In this document: positions 6,795 to 48,013 of the stretch, one piece after another
How the letters are laid out: every line of letters begins with the position of its first letter
Numbering within the stretch: position 1 is the stretch's first letter
NCBI GenBank assembly: GCA_951406725.2
Contig: OX597816.1
Location: forward strand, 52,948,001-53,012,000
Source of the DNA: Octopus vulgaris
Lineage: Eukaryota
Reading direction: 5' to 3'
DNA length: 64,000 nt
The notes under the pieces: generated by a model
Seen by the model: only the letters and a program-made list of their open reading frames with translations
Databases searched by the model: none
What the model was told of the DNA's origin: nothing
Program-made: the position numbers and the translations under genes

Positions 6795-7426
6795 AGATAC
6801 ATATATATATATATAGTTGAAAAGGAATTAAGAATTCATACAAATCAAAGGTTTCAAGTAAAAAGTATAAGTGGAAATAGAACAGAAGTATGTTTAAAGA
6901 TAATTTTGATTTTTTTTTCTTAAATCAGACAGGATAAATATTTTTATATTTGTTATATCAAGTGACTTTTATAAAATATTACTAGTTTTGATGCATATGT
7001 CCATCTTATCAAATACAAACAGAAGGACTTGCATTTGTACCTCAGTGTGAAATAAAATTTTTCACAAGTTTTTTTCAAGTGCATTCAACATATCTGACCT
7101 CCAAATTCACTACAATCCACTTTTTTCCAGAAAAGAAAGGAGTCGAGGGGTAGTAGGGACTTCGGAGTTTCCTACCGATAGAGTTTTGTTTCGCAGGTTT
7201 TACTTTTCCAGGTTACTTTGCATACTTTCAGCGAATGTGATATCAAAATCACACGTAAATGAAACATTAACAACATGAGTTTAGGCCAGTGAGCCTTTGA
7301 AAGCCATAGGTACTGCCCTTTTCTCCGGATTCAACATCTTTTATCTTTTACTTGTTTCATTCATTAGACTGTAGCCAAGCTGGGGCACTGCCATGTAAAA
7401 AAAACCAAACTAACAATCTCTTTTAA

Positions 7427-7646
7427 CCCTTTTATTACCAACCTGGCTGAAGCCAGCTCTGGCTCTGAGTACAAATGTCTTGTTTTCATAAGTTTTGAAT
7501 TAAAATCTTCCACCAAATCTTAGTCACAATTTATGTTCCTAACACTAGCTGAATAATGACTAAGTTATTTTACTAAATTCTTTGTTATATTTAAAGTAAT
7601 TGAAAGAAACACAGAGCATCTCAAAATAAATACAGTAACGAAAGGG
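7427..7646 (+). mobile_element. piggyBac-type MITE family 1
   Basis: TTAA on both sides, CCCTTT...AAAGGG termini; related copies at 9155 and 14335. Confidence 0.9.
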
Positions 7647-8619
7647 TTAAACATTTAAAGACAAAAAATATATACACTCCTTTTAAAAGCGAAACTTTCT
7701 GTTTAATGCTAGTGATATTCAATTTAATATTTCACATTTAATTTTCTCTAGATAGAGATGTATCAAAGGATTTAATTGTGAAATGAAAACTATTCAAAAC
7801 ATTTCTTTCATTCTAGTAAAAATAAAATGTACCTTTTCTTTTAAAGTTTAAATTTTTCAAAGAAACTCCTTTTTATAAAAATTAAGACATGGATTAAAGT
7901 TCCAGAAGAAAGAAAAACAGATAAGAATTTATTATAAATAGAACAGGAACCACCCAAACTGAATTGTTATAATCCATTAAATATGGATATTATTAATCTT
8001 TATTACTTCAGAAGAACCAAAAGCATAATCACATGAAAACACCTCAACTCAAACTTTTTCTTAATCCTTCCCTTAATTTAAAGTGCCTTCACAGTAGGAC
8101 ATAAAATTTGAATAGTAATATTTACCAGCTATTAAGAATGCTTCAGGCAGTTGTGGATCTGAAAAGGTTAAAGACGCAAACACAAAGGAGAATTCTTCTC
8201 TTCTCTTTGCCTGATAGAGATCAAATTATAATTTGAATATGTTATGAAGTAATAATATAAATCTCAGGAATTAAATCATAGTATTGAATGATTAAATGTC
8301 TCTCATCATTGTTCCATGAGAAACATGAAATATTGTACATTTACACATAAGAATAGAGAAAATGGTGAGTAGATGCACAGCTGTGGCAGAATTTAGAAGT
8401 TGCTATATCTCAAAACATTTCCTTTGTGTCATTTAAAAGGACTGGCTTTCTACTAAGCAGATTTCAATGGCAGCAGCCCAGGGGATTAGATATATAGTAT
8501 AAGACTGAACAAACAGAATCCAATCCTAATTCATAGATTAAATTTCATTTGACTTGGTTTGGATCAGTTTGTCTTATTTTACTTGTATTTATGTTTCATA
8601 AAGGTCGTAAGGACACGTG

Positions 8620-8745
8620 ATTTAGTACGTGGTTAGGGTATTGAGGACATGAACACAAGGTCATGGGTTCAATTGCTGTACAGGACAATGCATTGTGTCC
8701 TTAAGCAAGACTCTTCATTTCACACTGTTCTTCTACTCACTTGAA
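8620..8745 (+). mobile_element. Degenerate SINE family B head
   Basis: GTGGTTAGGGTA...GGTTCAATTG...TGTGTCCTTAAGCAAGAC. Confidence 0.65.
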
Positions 8746-9154
8746 GATGTGTACAATCAAAGTACTGGTGCAGCAGTTTTTTTTTCTCTCTTCTCTCTCC
8801 TCACACTCCCCTCCTTTCTGCACCCCACTCCTTTTCTCTTGCTGTCACATACTTGATACACTGCTGTATAAAAGAATGGTGAGCCAAGAGGCTGTCTATA
8901 TCTGCTCAGAACTACATAAGTGTCATGTTGTCATATCATACTTGTTTTGCAAATGACAGCTATGACTTGTCCATAAAGGTCAATGAAATATCATTTAAGG
9001 TTCTAAATTTAAACATAATTCATTACATTATTCATTGCTCGTTACATTACTATCTAGAACTATAATACACACTAGTCACTAATAATTATACATTACTAAT
9101 TACTCATTATATTACTATATCACATATTGCTCATTACATTACTTACTACCTTAA

Positions 9155-9370
9155 CCCTTTTGATACCAACCCGCCTGAAACCGCCTCTGGCTCTGTTGTA
9201 CAAAAGTCTTATAAGTTCTGAATTAAAATCTTCCACCAAACCTTAGTCACAATTTATGTTCCTAACACTAGCTTAATGATAAACTAAATTATTTTACTAA
9301 TTCTTTGTTATATTTAAAATTAATTGAAAGAAATACAGGGCATCTCAACAGAAATATGGTAACAAAAAAG
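9155..9370 (+). mobile_element. piggyBac-type MITE family 1
   Basis: TTAA flanks at 9151-54 and 9371-74; internal match to the 7427 copy. Confidence 0.85.
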
Positions 9371-9374
9371 TTAA

Positions 9375-9590
9375 GGTGTCGAGCTGGCAGATTCATTAGC
9401 ATGCCAGGCAAAATGCTTAGTGGTATTTCGTCTGTCTTTACGTTTTGAGTTCAAATTCCGCCAAGGTTGACTTTGCCTTTCATCTTTTCGGGGTCAATAA
9501 ATTAAGTACCAGTTGCATACTGGGGTTGATCTAGTTGACTGCCCCCCTCCCCCAAAATTTCAGGCCTTGTGTCTATAGCAGAAAGGATTA
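9375..9590 (+). mobile_element. SINE family C
   Basis: GAGCTGGCAG...GAGTTCAAATTCCGCC...GACTTTGCCTTTCATC...AAGTACCAGT. Confidence 0.85.
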
Positions 9591-10439
9591 CATTACTACC
9601 TAGTATTATGTTACACATTAGTCATTACTAATTATACGTTACTAATTATTCATAATATTGCTGTAATATACATTACTCATTATGCCTATATCTCTTAGTT
9701 ACATGATTAATTTTTGTAACATTTTTTGTCACTTGGGAGGGATGGGCAGCATTTCTGTGGAGCCACCCACTTCCCTTGATGCCCTAAGCACATGCTTGTT
9801 TTGCTTAATGGTTAATCCAGTGCTGTCTACAATCCAAGTAGGTTACAGCCGGATTTTAGCTCAGAAGTCAAAGAACCACAACAAATACCAAAAAGCATAC
9901 AATCCGATGCTCGAATGAATTTCCCAGTCCACCATGCTACACTAGTGCTACATTTATCAACCTCAGAAGAACAAAAATCAAAGTTTGCTTAAGTAGGATT
10001 TGAACTTAGAACACAAGCAAAACGAATACTCACAGAACTCCATTTTAGTATGCTACCAGTGCTAATTGCAAAAAAATGATATGTGAACGGCATGACAGGA
10101 AAAGTTTCTCCAAGCAAAATATAAACTCATAAATGTAATACACTAAAGACACTGTAATGCTCCTAATCAGCTCTCTCTCTATCTATCTCCCTCTCTCCAA
10201 TAACTACTGCGAGCAACGTCTTCATGACTACTATTGCTACTATTACTAACATGATGTTGGTGATAATGGTAACATACTAATGAGAGACAACACAAGGCAA
10301 ATTATCTGAAGCATAAATATTTTATTTCCAAGCATTTAATAAGATGTATAATTTGACACATTTTAATAGAAAGTCTCTGAAGATAGAAAAATAAAATACA
10401 TACATAAAAAAAAATCTTTAAAAAATTATATAGTTGCTA

Positions 10440-10693
10440 ACATACACACAAACATATGCATATGTGTGTGTGTATATATATATATATGTGTGTGTGTGTG
10501 TATATGTATGTACATGTCTATAGGTATATACATACACACATGGCCTTGCTATTTGCTTTTGAGCCAAATTAACTAACTAACACAGACATATATATATATA
10601 TATATATATGTCTGTGTGTGTGTATGTATATACATATAGACATGTACATACATACACACACACACACACATATATATATATACACACACAGAT

Positions 10694-10776
<83 letters not shown>

Positions 10777-10885
10777 GACACACACACACACACATATATT
10801 ATATGCACATGTACATACATATATACTTAAATATACCTATATGCAGGTAAATATGTATATATGTGTGTGTGTGGGCATGTGTGTG
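10440..10885. repeat. Compound (TA)n/(CA)n/(TG)n microsatellite
   Basis: Directly visible; source of the YI/CV/HT-rich ORFs here. Confidence 0.95.
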
Positions 10886-11460
10886 CAGTAAAATAATATT
10901 TATGCCTGTGACTTTTACAAATTGAAATCATAGGAAAATAGTAAGTGGAACTACGATGATCCGCTATGAGGGAAACATGATTTAAAAGAACTCAGTTCTG
11001 TTAAGCGTTAGATAGTATTAAAGTGAGTGAGCTTTTCATAATTTCAGGCTATTATTGATTTCTTGTTATTCTATCTCTAAAAAACACTACTCTGGAATGG
11101 TGATAAGATCCAGCACAACAGGCTTGTTTATCAGACAGTCAATAGAATCTTCTAGTGTTTTCCTGCCTTTGACTAATTAGCTTTGCAATAACACCTTTAG
11201 CATATGTATCATTCTATATTGGGAAGATGGAAATATGATTAAATGTTATGTTATTACACACATATACACACACATGCATACTTACATATATATCTATCCA
11301 TCTATCCGTATCACATGACCAAATCACCTCAGTCTAAAGATATATATATATACATACATATACATATATACACACACATACATATATATATATACACACA
11401 CATATATATATATATTCATATATATACATATAAGTATACATGCACACACATATATGTATA

Positions 11461-11514
<54 letters not shown>

Positions 11515-11698
11515 TATAATAATAATAACAATAATAATATTAAGGAATATGATTCCACACTTACAGGGAAAAATTCAATTTAGTAATACTAAATCAAATT
11601 TCACAATATATAATACATGTATATAAATTAGAGAAGAACCACCATGGAGCAATTCAACAATGATATGATTAAATCATATCATATAGAAAACAATTAAC

Positions 11699-11818
11699 GA
11701 TACGATAAAACATTAACCTAAAACTAAATAAAATATGAAATAATAAACAAATAGTATATAATTAGTATAAAATTTGTAAATATATTTATTTAGTTTTAGG
11801 TAAATGTTTTATCGTATC
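11699..11818. repeat. 34-bp inverted repeat (1 mismatch) with a 52-nt spacer
   Basis: GATACGATAAAACATTAACCTAAAACTAAATAAA (11699-11732) versus the reverse complement of 11785-11818. Confidence 0.9.
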
Positions 11819-12139
11819 TTTTTAGTTTTGGTAAAACTAAAAATTGTCAAAGATGAATTAAATTTATCATTGTTACTGTATATGTTAGTGTTATTTAATT
11901 TCTGAATGGTTTTGCTGCCATTTGCTTATGTAGTTCAATTTCTTTATTCATCAGTTTCTACTGAGACAGAGATGCAAGTAAAATTAATATCAGAGAAATG
12001 AAAATACAACTTTGGAAACAGCCAGCCTGCCATAATTTACATGGAAGCCATGAGCATACTTTCAAAGGAGATAATCAGAGAAAGACTTGAAAGTCAACAT
12101 AAGATCGTAATACTTTCTGTAAAGTAAATATAACAAATA

Positions 12140-12320
12140 ATTCAGAATCCTTGTCCGGTACCAGATCGTTACCAAAATCAAATCAGTTCATGCCAGTTAT
12201 GAGGCCAAACATCCATGATAGTTTAATCCAAATCCATCCAGCAGTTCTTGAGATATCTTGTCCATGGACAAACAAACACAACTGAAAGTAATACTTCCAT
12301 CTTTGCTAAGACAGAGCTAA
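12140..12320 (+). mobile_element. Degenerate Helentron/HINE (DINE-1-like) 3' fragment
   Basis: AAATCCATCCAGCAGTTCTTGAGATATC...ACAAACAAAC followed by a decayed terminal palindrome before TAAT; recognised by pattern only. Confidence 0.5.
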
Positions 12321-12352
12321 TAATAATAACAGTAATGATGATGATGATGATG

Positions 12353-12409
<57 letters not shown>

Positions 12410-12411
<2 letters not shown>

Positions 12412-12623
12412 CCTTTCTTTTATAGGCAAGAGGCCTGAAATTTTGGTGGGAAGGGAATAATCAATTATATCAATGGCAGTGCTCAACTGGTACTTATTTC
12501 AATGACCCCGAAAGGATGAAAGGCAAAGTCGACCTTGGTGGAAGTCAAACCCAGAATATAAAGATGGATGAAACACTGTTAAGCATTTTGCCTATCAGGC
12601 TAATAATTTTGCCAGCTCACTAC
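12410..12623 (-). mobile_element. SINE family C with a long (ATT)n tail (12317-12410)
   Basis: GACCCCGAAAGGATGAAAGGCAAAGTCGAC on + strand. Confidence 0.85.
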
Positions 12624-12734
12624 CATAATAATAATAATAACAATAACAATAATAACAATAATAATAATAATTATAATAATAATGATAATAATAATAATAA
12701 CAATAACAACAACAACAACAACAGCAGTAGCAGC

Positions 12735-13166
12735 AAAGACAGAATATTTCCATAGGTATAACATGACAGTAGCAAGCCTAGAGTGGAATATATGCAAGTG
12801 TTATAAAATCAGGACAGTTGAGAAGTGGTATGAACTTCAGCTAAACATGGTCTCTGACAAGAATGATGTCACCATCCTCCCTGATATGCCCATCGACATT
12901 GACAGAGAGATAAAAGCCAACAAGCCTGACATTGTTATCGAGAACAGGAAGAGCAGGAAGTAGATACTTATCAATATTGCAATGCCTTCTGAAAGAAACA
13001 TCTCTTTGAAAGTGAGTGTGAAGCTGACCAAGGTGCAAAGACCAAGAGATTAAAATCAATAGTTTGTGGAACATGAAGACCAAAAGAGAGGGAATGTAAA
13101 CGTTCACCAACATCAATATTTATGCAATCCAGAAGATCAAACTATTTGGAACAGCTCACATACAAG
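12735..13166 (+). pseudogene. R4/Dong-clade non-LTR retrotransposon fragment (REL endonuclease, C-terminus)
   Basis: Translation WNICKCY..KWYE..VTILPDMPIDIDREIKANKPDIVI..LINIAMPSERNI and IQKIKLFGTAHI, with stops and frameshifts. Confidence 0.8.
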
Positions 13167-13189
13167 GTATATTCTTTCTTTTATTCTTT

Positions 13190-13588
13190 TTTTATTTCTT
13201 TTACTTGTTTCAGTCATTTGACTGCGGCCATGCTGGAGCACCGCCTTTTTAGTCGAGCAAATCGACCCCAGGACTTATTCTTTGTAAGCCCAGTACTTAT
13301 TCTATCAGTCTCTTTTGCCGAACCGCTAAGTGACGGGGACGTAAACACACCAGCATCGGTTGTCAAGCAATGCTAAGGGGACAAACACACAAACATACAC
13401 ATATATACATATATATACATATATACGACAGGCTTCTTTCAGTTTCCGTCTACCAAATCCACTCACAAGGCATTGGTCAGTCCGGGGCTATAGCAGAAGA
13501 CACTTGCCCAAGATGCCACGCAGTGGGACTGAACCCAGAACCATGTGGTTGGTTAGCAAGCTACTTACCACACAGCCACTCCTACGCC
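13190..13588 (-). mobile_element. SINE family A (subfamily with AAGGCATTGG and GTTAGCAAG variants)
   Basis: Full-length match; variants shared with the 19.3-20.3 kb copies. Confidence 0.9.
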
Positions 13589-13589
13589 T

Positions 13590-13832
13590 CCAGAAGTATT
13601 AAGACTTTTTTCAGGAGAAACATTAATTATTTCGAAAAAGTACGAAACTCTAATCTCCTTCAAAGTAGGATTCTCTGACATCAATGCATTTGTTGTAGCA
13701 CTGCAGCCACTTCGTGAAGGCCCAATGTAAAGTTCTCCAAAGAGAAGGTGTCCAGAGCCTTTAACACACTTTCTTATATCTCATCCTTCAGCATGAGGAA
13801 CAATAAAAAAAAAGTTACAGGGAGAAAGATCG
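13590..13832 (-). pseudogene. 3' remnant of a second mariner transposase lineage
   Basis: Minus strand translates DLSPCNFF... and KWLQCYNKCIDVRESYFEGD*, a typical mariner C-terminus. Confidence 0.7.
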
Positions 13833-14334
13833 ATGAAGAAGAAGAAATTAAGATGAAAGGAATAAATTGACTCTAGACTTGAATAAGATCATGTCATAAG
13901 AAGAGGGAAAACAATGAAATGGAAGAGAGTTACAAGTCTGGTAGTTTAACCCTTTCATTACGATATTCTGCTGAGATCAACATTGTCTTTCATCCTTTCA
14001 GGATCAACAAACTAAGTACCAGTTGTGTACTGGGGGGAAAGGGTCGATCTAGTCGATAATGCTTAGTGGCATTTCATCCATCAAAATTCCAGCCCATGGA
14101 TCGAATGTAGAAATGACTGTTATTGGTGTTGTAGTTGTTATTGTGATAGCCGTTGCTGTTTCTGCAATTGTTATCGATATTCCTGTTGTTACTACTGCTG
14201 TTGTTGTTGTTGTTATTGATGATGATGATGCTAGTGTCACTAGAGTTATAGTTGCTGTTTAGCCTCAAGTCAACTCCAGCCAGTTGCACCTATAATCAAA
14301 GACAGTCAGGCAATGACCATACTGTGCCATTTAA

Positions 14335-14552
14335 CCCTTTCGCTACCGTATTTATTTTGAGATGCTCTATTTCTTTCAATTATTTTAAATATAAAAGAGA
14401 AATTAATAAAATAACTTAGTTATCATTCAGCTAGTGTTAGGAACATAAATTGTGACTAAGGTATGGTGGAAGATTTTAATACAAAACTGACGAAAATAAG
14501 ACAATTGTACTCAGAACCAGAGCCGGTTTCAGCTGGGTTGGTAACGAAAGGA
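14335..14552 (-). mobile_element. piggyBac-type MITE family 1
   Basis: TTAA flanks; reverse-complement match to the 7427 copy. Confidence 0.9.
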
Positions 14553-14565
14553 TTAAGGAAAAATG

Positions 14566-14971
14566 CTCTTTTACTTGTTTCAGTCATTTGACTGCGGCCA
14601 TGCTGGACCACTGCCTTCATTCGAGCAAATCAACCCCAGGATTTATTCTATGTAAGCCTAGTACTCATTCTATCAGTCTCTTTTGCCGAACCACTAAGTT
14701 ACGGGGACGTAAACACACCAACATCAGTTGTCAAGTGATGTTGGGTGGGGGACAAACACAGACACACAAACGTATACACATACACATACATATATATATA
14801 CATATATACGATGGGCTTCTTCCAGTTTCCGTCTACCAAATCCACTCACAAGGCTTTGTTCAACCCAAGGCTATAGTAGAAGACACTTGCCCAAAGTTCC
14901 ATGCAGTGGGACTGAACCCGGAACCATGTGGTTTGTAAGCAAGCTACTTACAACACAGCCACTCCTACACC
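14566..14971 (-). mobile_element. SINE family A
   Basis: Full-length match. Confidence 0.9.
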
Positions 14972-15339
14972 TACCATAGAAAGACTTTCTCATTCGTGGA
15001 AGCAAAACAGCATTAAAATACAGATACTGTGAGTTTTGAGTCAGGCAAGATAGCATGAAAGTGATCTGGAAATAAGAGTGAAAGTTCAACGAAATGTTTC
15101 CTGTGGTAATAACTAAAGAAATGACTAAAACTGGTAACATCACATCGATATGACAAGGGTTGCAGAGTTGAATCAAGAGAGGGACCAATCAAATTAGAGA
15201 AATAAGAAATATTGAATTTAAGAAGTAGTTACAAAGAGTTTTTTTTTTTTTTTTTTTGAAGAAAAAAAAACACAGAAGCATTGATTAATAATCTTTTGAA
15301 ATATATATGTACATATCATAACCCCCATACCAGAACTGA

Positions 15340-27973: not shown

Positions 27974-28177
27974 TTATTTAATTTATGAGAAAAATTATAA
28001 TCAAACTCAACTGTTGTATGATGGATTTCATGCATTGAAATAGAGAAATAGAATAGTAAATCTTTTAATTAGCATCTCACAAATTTGGTGGTGCTCCAGC
28101 ATACACAGTCACATGACTGAAACAAGTAAAAGAGTAAATTAAAACAAATACTGTTACCATTCAATTTGTTTTAATTT

Positions 28178-28578
28178 ACTCTTTTACTCTTTACTTGTTT
28201 CAGTCATGTGACTGTGGCCATGCTGGAGCATCACCTTTAGTTGAGCAATTCGATCCCAGGACTTATTCTTTGTAAGCTTAGTACTTAGTCTATTGATCTC
28301 TTTTGCTGAACCACCAAGTTACTGGGACGTAAACACACCAGCATCAGTTGTCAAGCGATGTTGGGATGGGGGACAAACACAGACGCAGAAACATATACAC
28401 ACACATACATATATACGACAGGCTTCTTTCAGTTTCCGTCTACCAAATCCATTCACCAGGCTTTGGTTGGCCCGAGGCTATAGTAGAAGACACTTGCCCA
28501 AGGTACCATGCAGTGGTACTGAACCCAGAACCATGAAGTTCGTAAGCAAGCTACTTACCACACAGCCACTCCTGCGCC
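28178..28578 (-). mobile_element. SINE family A
   Basis: Full-length match. Confidence 0.9.
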
Positions 28579-34980: not shown

Positions 34981-35120
34981 GTTTTCTGTGTTCCATTCCG
35001 TCAAAGAGCATCAGCTCGAAATGTAAAAAACTTGCTCACTTCCTGAGCATTAAACTAATACATCTGTTTCTTGTTTACACACCTGTCTTTGTCTTCTGTT
35101 TTTTTTGTAAATTCTCACTA
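34981..35120 (+). mobile_element. Penelope pLTR-like element with a decayed hammerhead-like motif, copy 3
   Basis: Homologous to the 43316 and 43795 copies; GAGC-ATCA-GCTC hairpin followed by GAAATGTA. Confidence 0.6.
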
Positions 35121-35122
35121 TA

Positions 35123-35519
35123 TCTTTATATATAAAAGTGAGGTTGTGTGCTGTCTGTCTCCTACGATTTAGATTCCTAACAACTCCCACATTTTGCGGT
35201 GCAGTTTAACCAAAACCGGGTATCTTATAGTCGTGATTCATATCGAGCCCTTCTGGGTATTAGCGCGTGTCTATGATGAGTCTATGATTTAAAAAAAAAT
35301 TTACCATGAATTTTTCCAATTTTCAATGCATTTTTGGCATATATAAGGGAAGTAACTATTTAAAAATTTATTATTAAATCTCAGAACGTAAAAAGCTACA
35401 GTAACACCCCCCCCTTTTGTGGTTAGCCATATTGAGATGGCTATTATACTTTACATCTCTAAAAATGCTTATATAGTTATTTCCCTTACAAACCTGAGAA
35501 ACGCCGGGCGATACTGCTA

Positions 35520-38935: not shown

Positions 38936-40163
38936 AATAATAAGCATCAACAAGATGGAATTTCTGTTTTGACAGAGATTTTTCGGATGCTTTTTTAAAG
39001 TGGAGATGATCTGGAGTATCTTTTTGGCAAAAAATTTTTTTTGTAATAAATGCTTTTCTTTTTAACTCCTCCCCCCATCTTCCCCTCTCCGGACCGATTT
39101 TGGTTGATTTTGTGGGCACTGTGCACTTGGAAACTGTAGAGGCCTTTTCGGTAAAAAAAAACAAACAAAAGAACATCTAGAGACTCACTGATAGAACCTG
39201 GAATATATCCATTATACATCTTTGAATATCTATCAGTTACAGGATACCAAATTACAGTTAAGGGTACCTGATAAAAATTACAGGTTAAGAAGTTTTCTTT
39301 TCATCCATGTGGTTTTGTGTTCAACCCCACTGAATAGCACCTTGGGTGAGTGTCTTCTACTATAGCCCCAAGTTGACCAAAGTCTTGTGAGTGGATGTGG
39401 TAGAGAGAAACTGAAGTTATCATCTATTTTATATATGTGCATATATGTTTGTGTGAGTGACATTCATATTTCCCTTCATCTTCACATGGTTTTGTTGGTT
39501 GTAAGCAATGATGGTGTCACTGACTTGCACATCTGGGCTCCTCGGCATGTCTTAAGATGGTGTACAACATGTGTAAACAAAAAGCTCATTCAAACGCTAT
39601 CATTTGTTTTACATTCTCTATGTAAGCATATAAGAGCTATTTGCTTGCTTGATAGGCTGGAAGAGTATTATCTTGCTCAGAAACAGGTGGTAGGGTTGGA
39701 GTCAGAAAGGGAATCTACTGGTAGAAAACTGCTCAAAAATTTGCTTGTCTCAAAAATGCTAGTGTGGAAAAGTATGATAAAATGACAATGATGATGATAA
39801 TAATCATCATCATCATCATAATCACGATGATGAAAGGCAACAACTTGGCAGAGTTTTCGAAGTGTTCACAAGAATGCTTTTTAGTTTTTGTCCTTATGTT
39901 GTGAGCCATGAGTTCAAATCCCAGTCAGGTGAAACTTATCTTTCTTCATTCAAAGGTCAAGGAAAATAGTGCCAAAGCAGGGAGATGGATTGGTGGAACA
40001 ATAAGAAAATTGAGCAAAATATCTTATGGTAATTGTTCCAGCCATTTGCTTTCTGACAGCAATACAAGGGTTGAATCAACCCTAAAATGATGGCCTTCCC
40101 CTTAGGCAACACTGACAACATGTTGAGAAAAGATTGCAGATATGAGCAACTGCCAGTTTTCTA

Positions 40164-40740
40164 TTGGGTTGTCCGGAAAGTTTGTGCTGATTTATAGTAG
40201 CTTACCTTTTGACTTATTTTAGAACATGGTCGAGTCCATAAAATAGGATTTTACTACACCTCCATTTAGAGCACAGTTTAAGCTATCTTTTCATGGAAGA
40301 AGGTTTATGTTCCTATAACCTGTGTTAATTCTGTAACCCTTTAAAATGGAAGATAAGAAAGTTCATTTTTGGCACTTGCTGCTTTGGGAACCAGACAAAA
40401 ATTGCTGCAGCTCAGCTGGGATGTCTTACTCCACCCTCCATATTCACCAGATATTGTTCCTTTGGATTTCCACTTATTCAGGTCTCTGCAGGATAGTCTT
40501 TATGGTAAAAATTTCAATTCCTTGCATGACGTAAAAAGATACCTTGATGAATTATTTGCCATGAAACTACCTCAATTCTGGGAAGTGGGTATTTTCAAGT
40601 TAAAGGAAAGATGGAGAGGCACAGGGCAACAAAATGGTTCATATTTGGTTGATTTTTGATTGATTAAAACTGTAATGGCAAGTATTTATTGACATTTTTC
40701 TTTCCTTTAAAAATCGGCACAAACTTTCCAGACAACCCAA
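40164..40740 (+). mobile_element. Non-autonomous, internally deleted mariner, copy 2
   Basis: TIRs with TA/TG flanks; MEDKKVHF N-terminus joined to the HPPYSPDI C-terminus. Confidence 0.95.
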
Positions 40741-42339
40741 TGCAATGAAAATTTTGCCCAAACTTGCACAGTCAGGCACAGATAAATGCTGATCTCTGAC
40801 TGACAGAAGTTCCAGAATTGATTCCATCTATTTGTTGATGGTATATTAATTACATCATTGACATCATCATCATCAGCAGCAGCATTTTAATGTCTGCTTT
40901 TCTGTGCTTGCATCAAGTGATGTCATTAGTTTCATTAATAACTTTAAGGCCATGTCAGATTGAATCTCAACACCTATTAGGTCATCAGACATCACAATCC
41001 TTGCCTGAAGCTGTTGTTGTTTGACCTCAGGCATGAGGAAGAAGGATTGTATAACTTCCAAATTTAAAATTATTTCCCTTTTTCTTTGAGAGCTGCTACT
41101 ACTTGCCACTAGGTTTCTGCTTTGCTTTTGTAATTCCAACATCCAGCAAAATTTTAATTAAGAAATTTTTGCAAATAGCATTCAGTACAACAACTTTTAA
41201 CTTATTCAAATTCGTGGCATTGGCTTCTTTCAGTTATTTTCTGTAGTTCATTTTATTTTCTTGAAGACTCAGAAAGTTATAGTATTGGGAGTAATAGAAA
41301 TGATTGCAGAATTATTACTCACTATAGAGGTAGTGTAAAGCCAAAAAGCTGTTTGGAAGTTATTGATTAATGCAAATAAATATAACGTACAATGCCAAGA
41401 ATCATAGTCTTTCAATTATTCTCCTATTGGTTTCACTCATTAGGCAATGGCCATTCTGGGGCATCATCAGGACTTGTGTCAAAGTATGTATCACCCTAGG
41501 CTTCTACTACAATGAACACCCACTTCCCTCAATTATGACTGATAGTAGAACACAGGTAAGAGAACATCTACATACATTTGTATCAATAGATTGCTGGTAA
41601 CGATTCCGTTTATGACTACTGCCAAAATATTGTTTAAACAAAAGCAATAATTCTTCATTCTTCATTGACAGATGTGGATACTTAGTTTAAGGTTAAAATA
41701 AGTATTTGCAACCATTTTTAATTTGGTCTAATACCTTCAGATTTGGCATTGCAGATGAATATTTTGCTTGCCTAATGCATGACACCAGCCCAGTAGTCCA
41801 CCTTCTACTTCAATTACATCAACCTCAAACATTTATTTTATAGAACTTGGAAGGATGAAAGATAAATTGGGTCTGGTTATGATTGAAACACAGAATGTAA
41901 AAGGACGTAATTAAATGAAGAATTTTGTCCTATTCTCTAACAATTCTGCCATCAACACAACATATACAAAAAGATTGTTTCCATTATTTGTGCTTAGATC
42001 TCTTAGTTGGTTCTAGAGTGAATCACATTTGCTGCCAAAATAATCAATATGAAATCAATAGAGTTCAATCTGTTAGCTGAGCTGACGCTGAATGATCAAG
42101 CAATGTGTGTGTGTGTATCTGGTGGACAATATGAACATGCAAGAATGACAGGCATCGCTTTGTGTTAAGAACTTTACTTTGCAACAAGGTGGTTCCAGGT
42201 TCATTCCCACTGCATGTATTTCTACTACAGCCTTGTGCTTATTATAGTTAGTGAGTGAAATTTAGTAGAGGAAAACTGTGCAGAAGGCAATTGTATATTT
42301 ATTTCTCTCTCTGTCTTTATATATATATATATATATATA

Positions 42340-42915
42340 AACACTGATATCAAGAAGTCTTCTTGTAAACATGATCTGGGCATTACTGTCAGCAGTGATT
42401 TGCGCTGGACAAAGCACATCTCTAAAATTGTCAAGAAGGCGAGGTGTATCTTGCCGTCACTCAGTGAGACCCTTGTCAGCCATTCTCCAGCTATCTATTT
42501 AAGGCTGTATATGGCTATGGTGTGGCTACATTTGGAATTGGCTGGTGCCACATTGAACACCTTTTTGAGCGCCATGTGTCCGACACACATAGGCATGCCT
42601 ACCAAGTCAGAAAACAGCACAGCTCCCATGACTTTCAGAAACATTTTTTTTTCACACTCAGGGTTGCTGAAGCATTGAACAAACTACCTAAATCAGTTGT
42701 TAGTTGCCAAGACATTGCATCCTTTAAAACCTCCATGCTTCCTAAAATTTGCCAATTCTACACCTGATATCCCACCTCCATACACATGCACACATGTATA
42801 TCATAACTCATACACTGTTCACTTTCCTGGCTTTTGTACATAATTCTATGTACCGTACATGCACCATTGATGAGTTGTAGTGCACCTGAGCACTAAAACA
42901 CAATATTATTATTAA

Positions 42916-43315: not shown

Positions 43316-43491
43316 TAGCCACTACACATTCTTTATTTTCTCTCCTTGTTTCTTTCTGTGTTCCTTTCTGTGGAAGAGCATAGGCTCGAAACGTTAAAGA
43401 CTTTTCCACTTCCTGAGCGTTATACTAATACATCTGTTTGTTATCTACACCACCTATCTTCATCTTTTGTTTTTTTTTGTGAATTCTCCCT
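43316..43491 (+). mobile_element. Penelope pLTR-like element with a hammerhead-like motif (43364-43399), within (TA)n
   Basis: CTTT-CTGTGGAA-GAGC ATAG GCTC-GAAAC-GTT-AAAG. Confidence 0.65.
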
Positions 43492-43519
43492 ATATATATA
43501 TATATATATATATATAACT

Positions 43520-43794: not shown

Positions 43795-43990
43795 CGCCAT
43801 GATAGATCGTTTGCTCCTACACGCATTTTTTCTCTCCTTGTTTTTTTCTGTGTATCTTTCTGTCAAAGAGCGTAGGCTCGAAACGTAAAAGACTTTTTCT
43901 TTTTCTATTCCTGAGTGCTATACTAATACATTTGTTTGTTTGTACTCCACCTGCCCTCGTCTTTTGTTTATTTTCGTAAACTTTCCCTTT
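43795..43990 (+). mobile_element. Penelope pLTR-like element with a hammerhead-like motif (43855-43892)
   Basis: TCTTT-CTGTCAAA-GAGC GTAG GCTC-GAAAC-GTA-AAAGA. Confidence 0.65.
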
Positions 43991-44273
43991 ATACATATAC
44001 ATATATGTAGATATGTATGTTTGTGTATTGATAACATCATCTATTTTGTCCAGTTTTGGGCTCAGGTTGGTTAATGTCAATTGTTATTTTCAATGAGAAT
44101 GAGACGGTGGAGAGAGTACACTGGACATTTCCCTTTTACACAGCTTTTTACCTCTGAGCGAAAGAGGACAGAAAAATGAATGTCATTCAAATACAGTTTA
44201 AAACTTGTTGCTCCGTTCAAAATTCACAAAACGAAAAACAACTAAAAGTACTTTGTAGTAAAATTATTTATAT

Positions 44274-44696: not shown

Positions 44697-44797
44697 TATA
44701 TATATATATATATATATATAACAACATTTAAGATGTAATACACATTAAATACTAACATACAATGTAAGTAGAAGTCAAATATAATTGTGAGCTTTTT

Positions 44798-44843
<46 letters not shown>

Positions 44844-44847
<4 letters not shown>

Positions 44848-45163
44848 GAAATGAAGAAATGCTGACAAAATAATTTAAGTAAGGGAGAGTGTATTTAATT
44901 AGGTGAAAGTTCTTTTTACCGGTTGCGCATTTGTTATGCTTATCAAAAGATATTTTTTTAAGAGAGATAGAGTTCCTTTCTGATAGATTTTTTTCTCTTA
45001 CCAGATAAGAGAAAAAAATCTATCAGAAAGGAACTCTATCTCTCTTAAAAAAATATCTTTTGATAAGCATAACAAATGCGCAACCGGTAAAAAGAACTTT
45101 CACCTAATTAAATACACTCTCCCTTACTTAAATTATTTTGTCAGCATTTTCTTCATTTCCTTT
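44844..45163. repeat. Long foldback palindrome: perfect 144-bp arms (44857-45000 and 45006-45149), 5-nt loop CCAGA, flanked by (TA)n
   Basis: Arms are reverse complements; pairing extends 13 bp further after a 1-nt bulge. Confidence 0.97.
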
Positions 45164-45205
45164 TTTTTATATATCACAACTCGTGTTCCACATCTCCTTT
45201 TTTAA

Positions 45206-45257
<52 letters not shown>

Positions 45258-45741
45258 CTGTATCACCAACTGACACATGGTAAACTTCAATCATTGTTGG
45301 AATTATATCTTTTTATTCAGCAGATGTTGTAGGTTATAGTTATACTTTGCAACAATTTATTTTAACTAAATAAAAGAAAATCAGTGTCCTTTTATCTTAG
45401 AAAGTTGTTTCATTCATGCTCTGAGGTTTTAATTTTATTGTTTCACTAAGTTTCCTAAAACTCCCACAAAATGCCACAAGATACTTCTAAATGTTGTGTG
45501 TGTGTTTATGAACCCGTAACTTAGTGGTTTGGCAAAAGATCTAAAGCACATGATTTAATCAATCATATATATATTTTCTCCCAATTTTGGTATTTTCAGA
45601 AAGTATATGCAATTTTGTTCTACACACTGTCTCTTGTGTTGGTGTGTCTACGTCTTTGTAACTTAGCAGTTTGGTGAAACAGACCAATAGAACCAAGTAC
45701 CAAGTTTAACAAAAGGAAAAAAAAATGTTCTGAGGTCAATT

Positions 45742-46537: not shown

Positions 46538-46983
46538 AATATTTACCCATAAGTGAATATTTGCATACACACATACAATTCCAAATATCTCTATGTACTG
46601 TGTACATACACACACATACAAACACAAACATATATACATAAACAACTCAACACATGTTCATACGCACATGCTCACACACCCAAACACGTATATACACAAG
46701 CAAGAACAAATACGCTGCTCCCAATACACATACACACACACACACAGAAATATACACGTGTGCACATAAACACACACCTACATACAAACACACACAGAGA
46801 TACAATGCAAAAACAATAGTGTGTACACACACCTGTACATAGGTACACACACACAACTTCAGGTATGTATATTTACCTGTACATGTATGTATAAACTAAC
46901 ATGCAAGCATATTCATACAAACTCACACAAAACACAAGACATATGCATGCAGATACACACAAACTCAGATATATCTACATATA

Positions 46984-47549
46984 TTGGGGTGCCTGGAAAG
47001 TTCGTGCCGATTTTTAAAGGAAAGAAAAAGGTCAATAAATACCTGCCATTACATTTTTAATCAACCAAATATGAATCATTTTGTTGCCCTGTGCCTCTCC
47101 ATCTTTCCTTTAACTTGAAAATACCCAATTCCCAGAATTGAGGTGGTTCCATAGCAAAGAATTTATCAATGTATCTTTTTATGTCATCCAAGGCATTGAT
47201 ATTTTTACCATTAAGACTATTCTGCAGAGACCTGAATAAGTGGAAATCCGAAGGAGCAATATCGGGTGAATATGGAGGGTGGGGTAACACATCCCAGCTG
47301 AGCTGCATCAATTTTTGTCTGGTTCCCAAAGCATCAAGTGCTGAAAATGAACTTTCTTATCTTCCATTTTAAAGGGTTACAGAATTAACACAGGTTATAG
47401 GAACATTAACCTTCTTCCATGAAAAGATAGCTTAAACTGTTCTCTAAATGGAGGTGTAGTAAAATCCTATTTTATGGACTCAACCATGTTTTAAAATAGG
47501 TTGAAAGATAAGTTACTATAAATTGGCATGAACTTTCCGGACAATCCAA
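46984..47549 (-). mobile_element. Non-autonomous, internally deleted mariner, copy 3
   Basis: TA TSDs at 46982-83 and 47550-51, TIRs, ORF 47057-47329 with HPPYSPDIAPSDFHLF. Confidence 0.95.
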
Positions 47550-48013
47550 TAGTAATGCTTCAATATATAAGTTGATTCATTCCCAGAAAACACTCATAAG
47601 CAGAAAATAAAACTCATAAAAGGTCATAAACCCAGGATCTTGTAACTGCAACGTGAGTCCTTGTGCTCATGCTGGCATACGCATACACACACACACACAC
47701 ACACACACACAAACCCAAATACACTCACAGACATGCACAACCATAAATATGTTTACATACCTGTACATTCATGCATGCATGCATAAACCCACAAATATAC
47801 ATACACAGGAGGAACACTCAAAATAAGTATTCACATACATGGCATAAGAAGCATATGACTCACAAGTTAAAACTGTTAATGTTCAAATTAAAGTGGTGAG
47901 AGCGGGTGGGCATAACAGGTGTGCAAAATGGACATTGAGCACAGGCCTTGTACAAACTAAGTTTTATGCACCACATAGCTAAGACAGGTTCAGAATAAAA
48001 GCAATAGTATTTG

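What the first reader, a model, noticed from the sequence alone, without database searches (positions are those of the whole stretch)
44844..45163. Perfect 144-bp foldback in a (TA)n tract whose arm carries a hammerhead-like motif with a compensatory U3:A8 core
Seen: perfect inverted arms around a 5-nt loop, with (TA)n on both sides. The arm at 45056-45096 (+), mirrored at 44910-44950 (-), reads UCUU-UUGAUAA-GCAU aacaa AUGC-GCAAC-CGGU-A-AAAAG. This is type-I hammerhead order with a 4-bp helix II, a palindromic ACCGGU helix III and a GUA triplet. Established: C3 and G8 pair in the active hammerhead, so the double change to U3/A8 preserves that pair; Penelope-like elements (PLEs) carry minimal hammerheads with palindromic helix III in their pLTRs and often leave inverted pLTRs. 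Inference: a very recent, microsatellite-targeted, inverted-pLTR insertion of an uncharacterised PLE-related family that would give long dsRNA if transcribed. Caveats: A13 reads C, and helix I is only 2 bp in the catalytic register.
Basis: partly seen in the sequence, partly recalled or inferred. Interest (0 to 1): 0.8.

Follow-up and report, generated by a model that had tools for sequence, protein, structure and literature searches.

The report
Retrotransposon foldback with altered hammerhead ribozyme
This perfect 144-base DNA foldback sits in a TA microsatellite and is one copy of an abundant repeat family; it is likely the head-to-head leftover end of a Penelope-like retrotransposon, and its hammerhead-ribozyme-like motif carries a family-wide change at a core position that would likely cripple self-cleavage.

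Summary
The foldback is real: arms 44857-45000 and 45006-45149 are 144/144 complementary, and the outer flanks are not mirrored. The arm is not unique. 726, 422 and 604 contigs from deep runs of three organisms lie on it, with non-palindromic upstream continuations, ends in (TA)n, and the same fold-back junction. Head-to-head arms, a one-sided 30-40-nt tail, (TA)n targeting and a sense-strand type-I hammerhead are the published anatomy of Penelope-like element (PLE) inverted pLTRs. The link to an RT/GIY-YIG gene could not be shown. The motif beats shuffles (0 of 100 shuffled windows). U3-A8 is already published for Schistosoma PLEs. C13 breaks the consensus core and appears family-wide (no variant of 2% or more listed); helix I is 2 bp. 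So the ribozyme is most likely dead or very weak, and a read-through RNA would bury it in a hairpin. Verdict: new member of a known kind, interest 0.3. Open: whether U3-A8/C13 is an active new core variant (about 12%).

The parts
44797..44844 (.). left (TA)n tract, target site
   Evidence: Tandem Repeats Finder
44844..45000 (-). inverted, tail-less copy of the element's 3' end (left arm; perfect part 44857-45000)
   Evidence: ends directly on (TA)n after three T
45001..45005 (.). head-to-head junction; C at 45001 where 81-94% of the contig depth in three runs reads T, which makes a 1-nt-loop palindrome
   Evidence: table 3; shares computed
45006..45168 (+). forward copy of the element's 3' end (right arm; perfect part 45006-45149)
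   Evidence: family sequence in 4 of 4 runs laid
45004..45048 (+). possible last 14 codons and stop of the element's ORF (DKRKKSIRKELYLS*); inferred, not confirmed
   Evidence: the 30 upstream loose letters of run X4 read by eye in this frame hold no stop (table 7, agreement 0.7)
45058..45091 (+). type-I hammerhead-like motif: 2-bp helix I, U3-A8, 4-bp helix II with G10.1-C11.1, C13 in place of A13, palindromic ACCGGU, GUA triplet (cut would fall after 45089)
44915..44948 (-). mirror copy of the hammerhead-like motif
45169..45174 (+). internal (AT)3 spacer; tail-less family copies pass into (TA)n here
   Evidence: loose ends behind 45163 (X3) and 45174 (X2, X4), table 7
45175..45210 (+). tail of about 35 nt on one side only; family sequence, not host flank
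   Evidence: absent on the left; covered in 4 of 4 runs, tables 2 and 8
45206..45257 (.). right (TA)n tract

Best explanation
This is a perfect head-to-head foldback of an abundant repeat's end inside a (TA)n tract, likely a young, ORF-less inverted-pLTR insertion of a Penelope-like retrotransposon, whose hammerhead-like motif is likely crippled by a family-wide A13-to-C change. Shown: the foldback, the one-sided tail, the multi-copy family in three organisms, copies that go on upstream without folding back, copies ending in (TA)n with and without the tail, and the same junction in many contigs. Inferred steps: (1) a GIY-YIG endonuclease of an autonomous PLE nicks (TA)n; (2) reverse transcription copies about 160 nt of the 3' end plus tail; (3) at the micro-palindrome TCAGA at 45001-45005 the new strand folds back or switches template and copies itself, giving the inverted arm; (4) resolution at the internal (AT)3 spacer leaves the tail on one side only. 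The hammerhead is likely a passenger: the family spread although position 13 is C and helix I is 2 bp. At this locus any read-through RNA is predicted to pair both copies into one hairpin, which would block the ribozyme fold.
For: Anatomy. Family: 20 holder runs in 10 studies and 5 organisms; 726/422/604/7 contigs laid from X2/X3/X4/X9, mostly 95-100% alike (table 1). A shared non-palindromic continuation before 45002 in 4 of 4 runs (8, 4, 7, 1 contigs); (TA)n before 45003-45005 (X3, X4) and behind 45163/45174 (X2, X3, X4) (table 7). T at 45001 in 15, 9, 13 contigs; one X4 contig spans 44966-45075 with 35 nt of the left arm; one X3 contig joins 45001 to 45074 on opposite strands, i.e. an inverted junction at another point (tables 3, 5, 8). 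Literature: inverted 5'-truncated copy, 30-40-bp tail often at one end only, (TA)n bias of Naiad and Hydra PLEs (PMC8557442); head-to-head palindromic junctions, tail on one inverted pLTR, self-priming proposal (PMC3846280); G10.1-C11.1, palindromic helix III, 2-bp helix I in D. virilis, U3-A8 in Schistosoma (PMC4209133). Against catalysis: A13 belongs to the consensus core and is not among the natural variants described in the section read (PMC3088659); no variant of 2% or more is listed at 45048-45121 in three deep runs; the hammerhead-constrained fold is +1.8 kcal/mol against -6.0 free, and the whole insertion folds at -252.5; PLEs without canonical hammerheads proliferate well (PMC8557442).
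Against: No RT or GIY-YIG ORF was linked: no genome is held, the open 67-codon frame found no protein, and six motifs of this family searched in the Craig et al. supplement found no matching element. A junction at one fixed place in many copies of three organisms fits a foldback unit that spreads as such at least as well as repeated independent events. Helix II, G10.1-C11.1 and the helix III palindrome are intact, which is odd for a long-dead ribozyme (the ACCGGU self-duplex is -8.3 kcal/mol). Contigs hide variants near their ends, so 'no variant listed' is not proof that every copy has C13. No target-site duplication can be read inside (TA)n.
Confidence: 0.62

Rival explanations
1. Same PLE origin, but U3-A8 with C13 is a working, dimer-dependent hammerhead variant that canonical descriptors miss; it cleaves PLE transcripts from non-palindromic copies.
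For: All other core positions, G10.1-C11.1, helix II and the helix III palindrome are kept; C13 appears to be the family letter in three organisms; a second, unrelated (TA)n-ended repeat in the window also has U3-A8 with one change in GAAA, and a third has U6; PLE hammerheads are weak and dimeric anyway (PMC4209133).
Against: [quoted passage not shown]
Confidence: 0.12
2. The palindromic unit is itself a non-autonomous foldback subfamily (a MITE-like PLE derivative) copied as a whole in trans, not a product of repeated fold-back events.
For: One junction position in 15, 9 and 13 contigs of three organisms, with small variants (5- and 7-nt deletions, 1-nt insertion) (tables 3, 4); pLTRs suffice in cis for mobilisation in trans (PMC3846280).
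Against: The junction lies on a natural micro-palindrome and at the place where other copies start after (TA)n, so it can recur independently; other inverted junctions exist (45001-45074); only this junction was in the stretch laid, so others were under-sampled. Not exclusive of the best explanation.
Confidence: 0.15
3. A MITE or foldback element of a TA-targeting DNA transposon; the hammerhead likeness is chance.
For: Short, non-coding, multi-copy, inverted arms, TA context.
Against: The two ends differ (tail on one side, T-run 3 against 8); the arm also exists unfolded with an upstream continuation in 4 of 4 runs; the motif is not reached in 100 shuffled windows once G10.1-C11.1 is required.
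Confidence: 0.07
4. Assembly or library chimera (foldback read).
For: The arms are 100% identical; raw reads of this exact locus were not seen; no contig spans the whole stretch.
Against: Flanks are not mirrored, the outer arm ends differ by an indel and a tail, and the junction stands in three runs of three studies.
Confidence: 0.04

Closest known systems
Inverted pLTR insertions of endonuclease-bearing Penelope-like elements (Adineta vaga Pen2/Pen3, PMC3846280; Naiad and Hydra, PMC8557442)
   Same: Head-to-head inverted copy of the 3' end, palindromic junction, 30-40-nt tail on one side only, (TA)n target, hammerhead motif about 80 nt from the 3' end on the outward-reading strand.
   Different: No ORF in the insertion; clade cannot be named; hammerhead core is non-canonical, whereas all Hydra hammerheads listed in File S2 have CUGA...GAA.
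Schistosoma mansoni Cercyon-type min-HHR with U3-A8 (PMC4209133)
   Same: UUGAUAA core, short helix II, type-I order, pairs of motifs on opposite strands 100-700 bp apart are described there too.
   Different: The published motif keeps GAAA; here it is GCAA, and helix III has a 6-nt palindrome.
Hydra-1_Obim and the five cephalopod Naiads of PMC8557442
   Same: (TA)n-targeting PLEs of cephalopods (host of this window is octopus-like by recall only).
   Different: Hydra-1_Obim has a different, canonical hammerhead; none of six motifs of this family found a matching element in the supplement (line breaks can hide single motifs).
Non-LTR retrozymes (bioRxiv 10.64898/2026.07.22.740005, part 1 of 5 read)
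   Same: Short non-coding PLE-related units with a type-I hammerhead.
   Different: Retrozymes are head-to-tail tandems with complete ribozymes; this locus is head-to-head.

Membership tests
Penelope-like element (EN+) | ORF with PLE reverse transcriptase and GIY-YIG endonuclease in full-length copies | not testable with these tools
   No genome held; only 14 codons of the candidate frame lie in the window; another open frame found nothing; no RT or GIY-YIG Pfam hit in 108 window ORFs (107 of 479 stop-free frames picked by filter, plus one added).
Penelope-like element (EN+) | Inverted, 5'-truncated copy joined head-to-head | tested here: met
   the family continues upstream of 45002 in 4 of 4 runs, so both arms are truncated at the junction.
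Penelope-like element (EN+) | 30-40-bp tail at one end only | tested here: met
   45175-45210 on the right only; family copies exist with and without it.
Penelope-like element (EN+) | Insertion bias for (TA)n (Naiad, Hydra, Neptune) | tested here: met
   Both flanks; loose ends into (TA)n in X2, X3, X4 (table 7).
Penelope-like element (EN+) | Hammerhead motif in the pLTR, sense strand | tested here: inconclusive
   Motif present and beyond shuffles but with C13; sense is inferred from the tail and the candidate stop codon.
Penelope-like element (EN+) | Target-site duplication | not testable with these tools
   Cannot be read inside (TA)n.
Type-I minimal hammerhead ribozyme | 3:8 pair (C-G or U-A), U4 G5 A6 A9 G12 A14, A15.1-U16.1, H17 | tested here: met
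   U3-A8 is a known natural covariation.
Type-I minimal hammerhead ribozyme | A13 | tested here: not met
   C at 45081 in both arms; no A variant of 2% or more listed in three deep runs.
Type-I minimal hammerhead ribozyme | Helix II with G10.1-C11.1; palindromic helix III | tested here: met
   GCAU/AUGC and ACCGGU.
Type-I minimal hammerhead ribozyme | Helix I of 3-6 bp | tested here: not met
   2 bp; 2 bp is reported for D. virilis Penelope.
Type-I minimal hammerhead ribozyme | Match to an Rfam hammerhead model | tested here: not met
   None at E<=10 on 45006-45210 or 44700-45300.
Type-I minimal hammerhead ribozyme | Self-cleavage | not testable with these tools
   Needs an in vitro assay.
MITE / TIR DNA transposon | Matching terminal inverted repeats at both ends of a fixed-length unit | tested here: not met
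   Ends differ; arm also occurs unfolded.
Non-LTR retrozyme | Head-to-tail tandem units, each with a complete type-I hammerhead | tested here: not met
   No tandem array here; tandem copies elsewhere in the genome not tested.
microRNA precursor | Rfam family match at gathering score | tested here: not met
   Hits are all below gathering and reflect the hairpin only; 0 hits at gathering in the window.

The most novel reading that the evidence does not exclude
A young, abundant PLE family runs on a working hammerhead with a doubly changed core (U3-A8 plus C13), and the two other (TA)n-ended repeats in this window with off-consensus cores (U3-A8 with A12; U6) show that this genome's microsatellite-targeting PLEs use a set of non-canonical hammerheads that standard descriptors and Rfam miss; the recurrent 1-nt-loop junction records self-priming at a fixed micro-palindrome.
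Probability: 0.12. Interest if true: 0.6.

Novelty: new member of a known kind. Interest (0 to 1): 0.3.

Why it matters
As a locus it is ordinary: a PLE-type inverted end in a repeat-rich animal genome. Two things are worth a cheap follow-up. First, a family-wide C13 in an otherwise intact hammerhead gives a direct test of an open question (are PLE hammerheads needed or are they passengers?): if dead, the family spread without it; if alive, the hammerhead core consensus needs widening. Second, many copies share one fold-back junction on a micro-palindrome, a natural data set for the self-priming model of PLE replication. Perfect 144-bp hairpins would be good ADAR or Dicer substrates if transcribed, but that is untested here.

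Tried and rejected
No whole genome held, so no genome-wide search of the arm; no second copy of the arm in the window. Expression: no RNA holder listed; run X9 is RNA by guess only and its 7 contigs cannot show strand, start or cleavage; two of them end at 45087, which is where the next contig's 30-nt overlap ends, so I read it as a graph junction, not a cut. Summed contig depth is no copy number; the ratios (7,000-15,000) may be inflated up to about 30-fold by overlapping contigs and are not used. The dip in X2 at 45128-45145 is no finding. Gapped motif scans: 5 viral loci and 9 metagenome loci, all 14 rejected by eye as lacking helix I and an equivalent helix II, in sequence of 43-60% G+C; exact 26-mer in prokaryote genomes 0. 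Protein searches: the 67-codon open frame, 13 candidates, none at E<=10; a SINE-derived frame, no candidate; a mariner relic gave 546 relatives but did not name the host. The candidate ORF-end frame is too short to search. Single-arm folds are no more stable than shuffles (z -0.88 to +0.32). Bacterial promoter scan is irrelevant and empty. Earlier scan findings: nothing in 5 look-ups. Paper searches for an octopus hammerhead or an A13C variant showed none; Lunse et al. 2017 on PLE hammerhead variants is not held and may bear on C13, as may figures of PMC3088659 (S6, S7) and file 1 of the PMC4209133 supplement, which I could not see. Alternative register with C as an insertion after G12 was rejected by eye: it would put C at 15.1.

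Full report
Observation. The arms 44857-45000 and 45006-45149 are complementary at 144 of 144 positions around CCAGA; nothing else in the 64 kb comes close (next 25 bp). They run on, with a 1-nt indel and a T-run of 3 against 8, to 44844 and 45168. The left arm ends on (TA)n (44797-44844). The unique flanks are not mirror images, which a fold-back read chimera would usually give. The window is an AT-rich, repeat-rich animal sequence (33% has another copy within the window; mariner relics). It looks like an octopus genome from SINE sequences that I recall; no call showed the host.

The motif. U3-A9 lies at 45060-45066, helix II at 45067-45070/45076-45079 with G10.1-C11.1, G12 C13 A14 at 45080-45082, ACCGGU at 45083-45088, A17 at 45089; helix I is 2 bp. 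A descriptor fitted to it hit 0 of 20,000 shuffles of the arm and tail. A wider one (any Watson-Crick 3:8 pair, any one core change) hit 14 of 3,000 such shuffles, and 0 of 3,000 with G10.1-C11.1. In the real window the wide form finds 7 sites and the G10.1-C11.1 form 4 (two arms, 7012-, 43368+); 100 block-shuffled windows gave 0.39 and 0 per window. The descriptors are post hoc, but the margin is large. Rfam finds no hammerhead, and the single arm folds no better than shuffles.

The family. Twenty runs from 10 studies and 5 organisms hold 70-90% of the sampled words, some with only 43-138 million letters of contigs (the best holder may be the source sample). I laid 4 of the 24 listed runs on 44966-45208. 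726, 422 and 604 contigs of X2, X3, X4 (organisms A, B, C) and 7 of X9 lie on these 243 bases, mostly 95-100% alike: a young multi-copy family. Loose ends show (a) one shared upstream continuation before 45002 in all four runs, so the arm also exists unfolded and both arms here are truncated at the junction; (b) (TA)n directly before 45003-45005 in X3 and X4; (c) (TA)n behind 45163 or 45174, i.e. tail-less 3' ends, while other contigs run through the tail. 87 loose ends were not shown. At 45001, 15, 9 and 13 contigs read T, at least 25 letters from a contig end at best, carrying 81, 94 and 92% of the depth there. With T the junction is a palindrome with a 1-nt loop. One X4 contig spans 44966-45075 with 35 nt of the left arm; one X3 contig joins 45001 to 45074 on opposite strands. 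No other letter at 2% or more is listed between 45048 and 45121, so U3, A8 and C13 appear to be the family's letters; contigs hide variants near their ends, so this is not proof for all copies. With the rate implied in PMC13282606 (JC 0.09 = 25 My, passages), 0 differences in 144 sites bound the insertion below about 3 My, if that rate applies and the arms were not homogenised.

What it is. Craig et al. 2021 (PMC8557442; passages, section 11, supplement searches and part 2 of 59) describe an inverted 5'-truncated copy, a 30-40-bp tail often at one end only, and (TA)n bias for Naiad and Hydra PLEs. Arkhipova et al. 2013 (PMC3846280, passages) describe head-to-head junction palindromes, a tail on one inverted pLTR, and propose self-priming. 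Cervera and de la Pena 2014 (PMC4209133, parts 1-2 of 4 and supplement file 2) describe minimal hammerheads in pLTRs with G10.1-C11.1 and palindromic helix III, a 2-bp helix I in D. virilis, motif pairs on opposite strands, and U3-A8 in Schistosoma, once as UUGAUAA with GAAA. This locus meets every structural feature I could test. A frame ending DKRKKSIRKELYLS* at 45048, just before the motif, may be the ORF end; the upstream loose letters give K-P-N-I in that frame by eye, which resembles the end of PLE GIY-YIG domains as I recall it. That is a lead only. The RT/GIY-YIG link was not shown, so I file it as a likely PLE derivative of unnamed clade. It matches neither Hydra-1_Obim's hammerhead nor, by six motif searches, another element of that supplement.

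How it likely works. Inferred: an autonomous PLE nicks (TA)n, copies the 3' end and tail, folds back at the TCAGA micro-palindrome, copies itself, and is resolved at the internal (AT)3, leaving the tail on one side. The fixed junction could equally mean that the foldback unit now spreads as a whole; the data cannot separate the two. The ribozyme is likely disabled: A13 is part of the consensus core and not among the natural variants in section 8 of Perreault et al. 2011 (PMC3088659); core changes mostly abolish cleavage (PMC7092961 and PMC9901934, passages); the constrained fold costs +1.8 against -6.0 kcal/mol free. Against this: helices II and III are intact, the helix III self-duplex is -8.3 kcal/mol, PLE hammerheads are weak and dimeric in any case (PMC6765202, passages), and I found no measurement of A13C in the papers I could read. 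At this locus a read-through RNA is predicted to form one hairpin of -252.5 kcal/mol, which would bury both motifs. Transcription, editing and small RNAs are untested.

Context. Two other repeats in the window end on (TA)n with a hammerhead-like motif 100-165 nt upstream: one at 7012(-) with U3-A8 and A in place of G12 (single copy here, no DNA likeness to the arm), and one in three copies (34982, 43336, 43828) with U6. They suggest that off-consensus cores are common among this genome's microsatellite-targeting repeats; whether these are decay or design needs family consensuses. PLEs are 6.83% of the O. vulgaris genome in 190 families, 31 recently active (PMC13282606), so an unnamed young family would be no surprise if the host is an octopus.

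Novelty. Searches for an octopus hammerhead or an A13C core listed nothing on this family; Lunse et al. 2017 was not available and repeat libraries such as Repbase or Dfam could not be searched. Verdict: new member of a known kind, interest 0.3; an active U3-A8/C13 ribozyme is not excluded (0.12, interest 0.6).

Noticed in passing
window 7016-6816 (-); motif U3 at 7012, N17 at 6980: Second hammerhead-like motif with U3-A8, 4-bp helix II with G-C, palindromic ACUAGU, 4-bp helix I and A in place of G12, 164 nt upstream of a pyrimidine-rich end on (TA)n; unrelated in sequence to the arm.
   Followed up: partly
window 34982-35123, 43336-43502, 43828-44000 (+): Three copies (74-81% alike) of another repeat ending on (TA)n, with a minimal-hammerhead relic: C3 U4 G5 U6, GAGC/GCUC helix II, GAAA, CG palindrome, CUUU/AAAG helix I.
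   Followed up: partly
window 28125-28188: Perfect 25-bp inverted repeat around 14 nt at the end of a SINE-like copy, within a longer imperfect foldback.
   Followed up: no
window 40158-40741 and 46983-47555: Two mariner transposase relics in opposite orientation, 92% complementary over 497 nt, enclosing the finding at 6.4 kb spacing; a third relic at 2106-2381.
   Followed up: partly
window 45002-45203 (+): A 67-codon stop-free frame spans the whole right arm and tail; no protein relative at E<=10 among longer proteins; likely chance.
   Followed up: yes
places 45038-45054 and 45113-45124: Subfamily variants just upstream of the hammerhead (shorter A-run region, which alters the 5' strand of helix I) and a short duplication downstream, seen as loose ends in X2, X3, X4, X9.
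   Followed up: no
window 12607-12963 (+) and 42259-42678 (+): Frames that by recall resemble relics of a restriction-like-endonuclease non-LTR element and of a CR1-type reverse transcriptase; no Pfam hit at E<=0.01.
   Followed up: no
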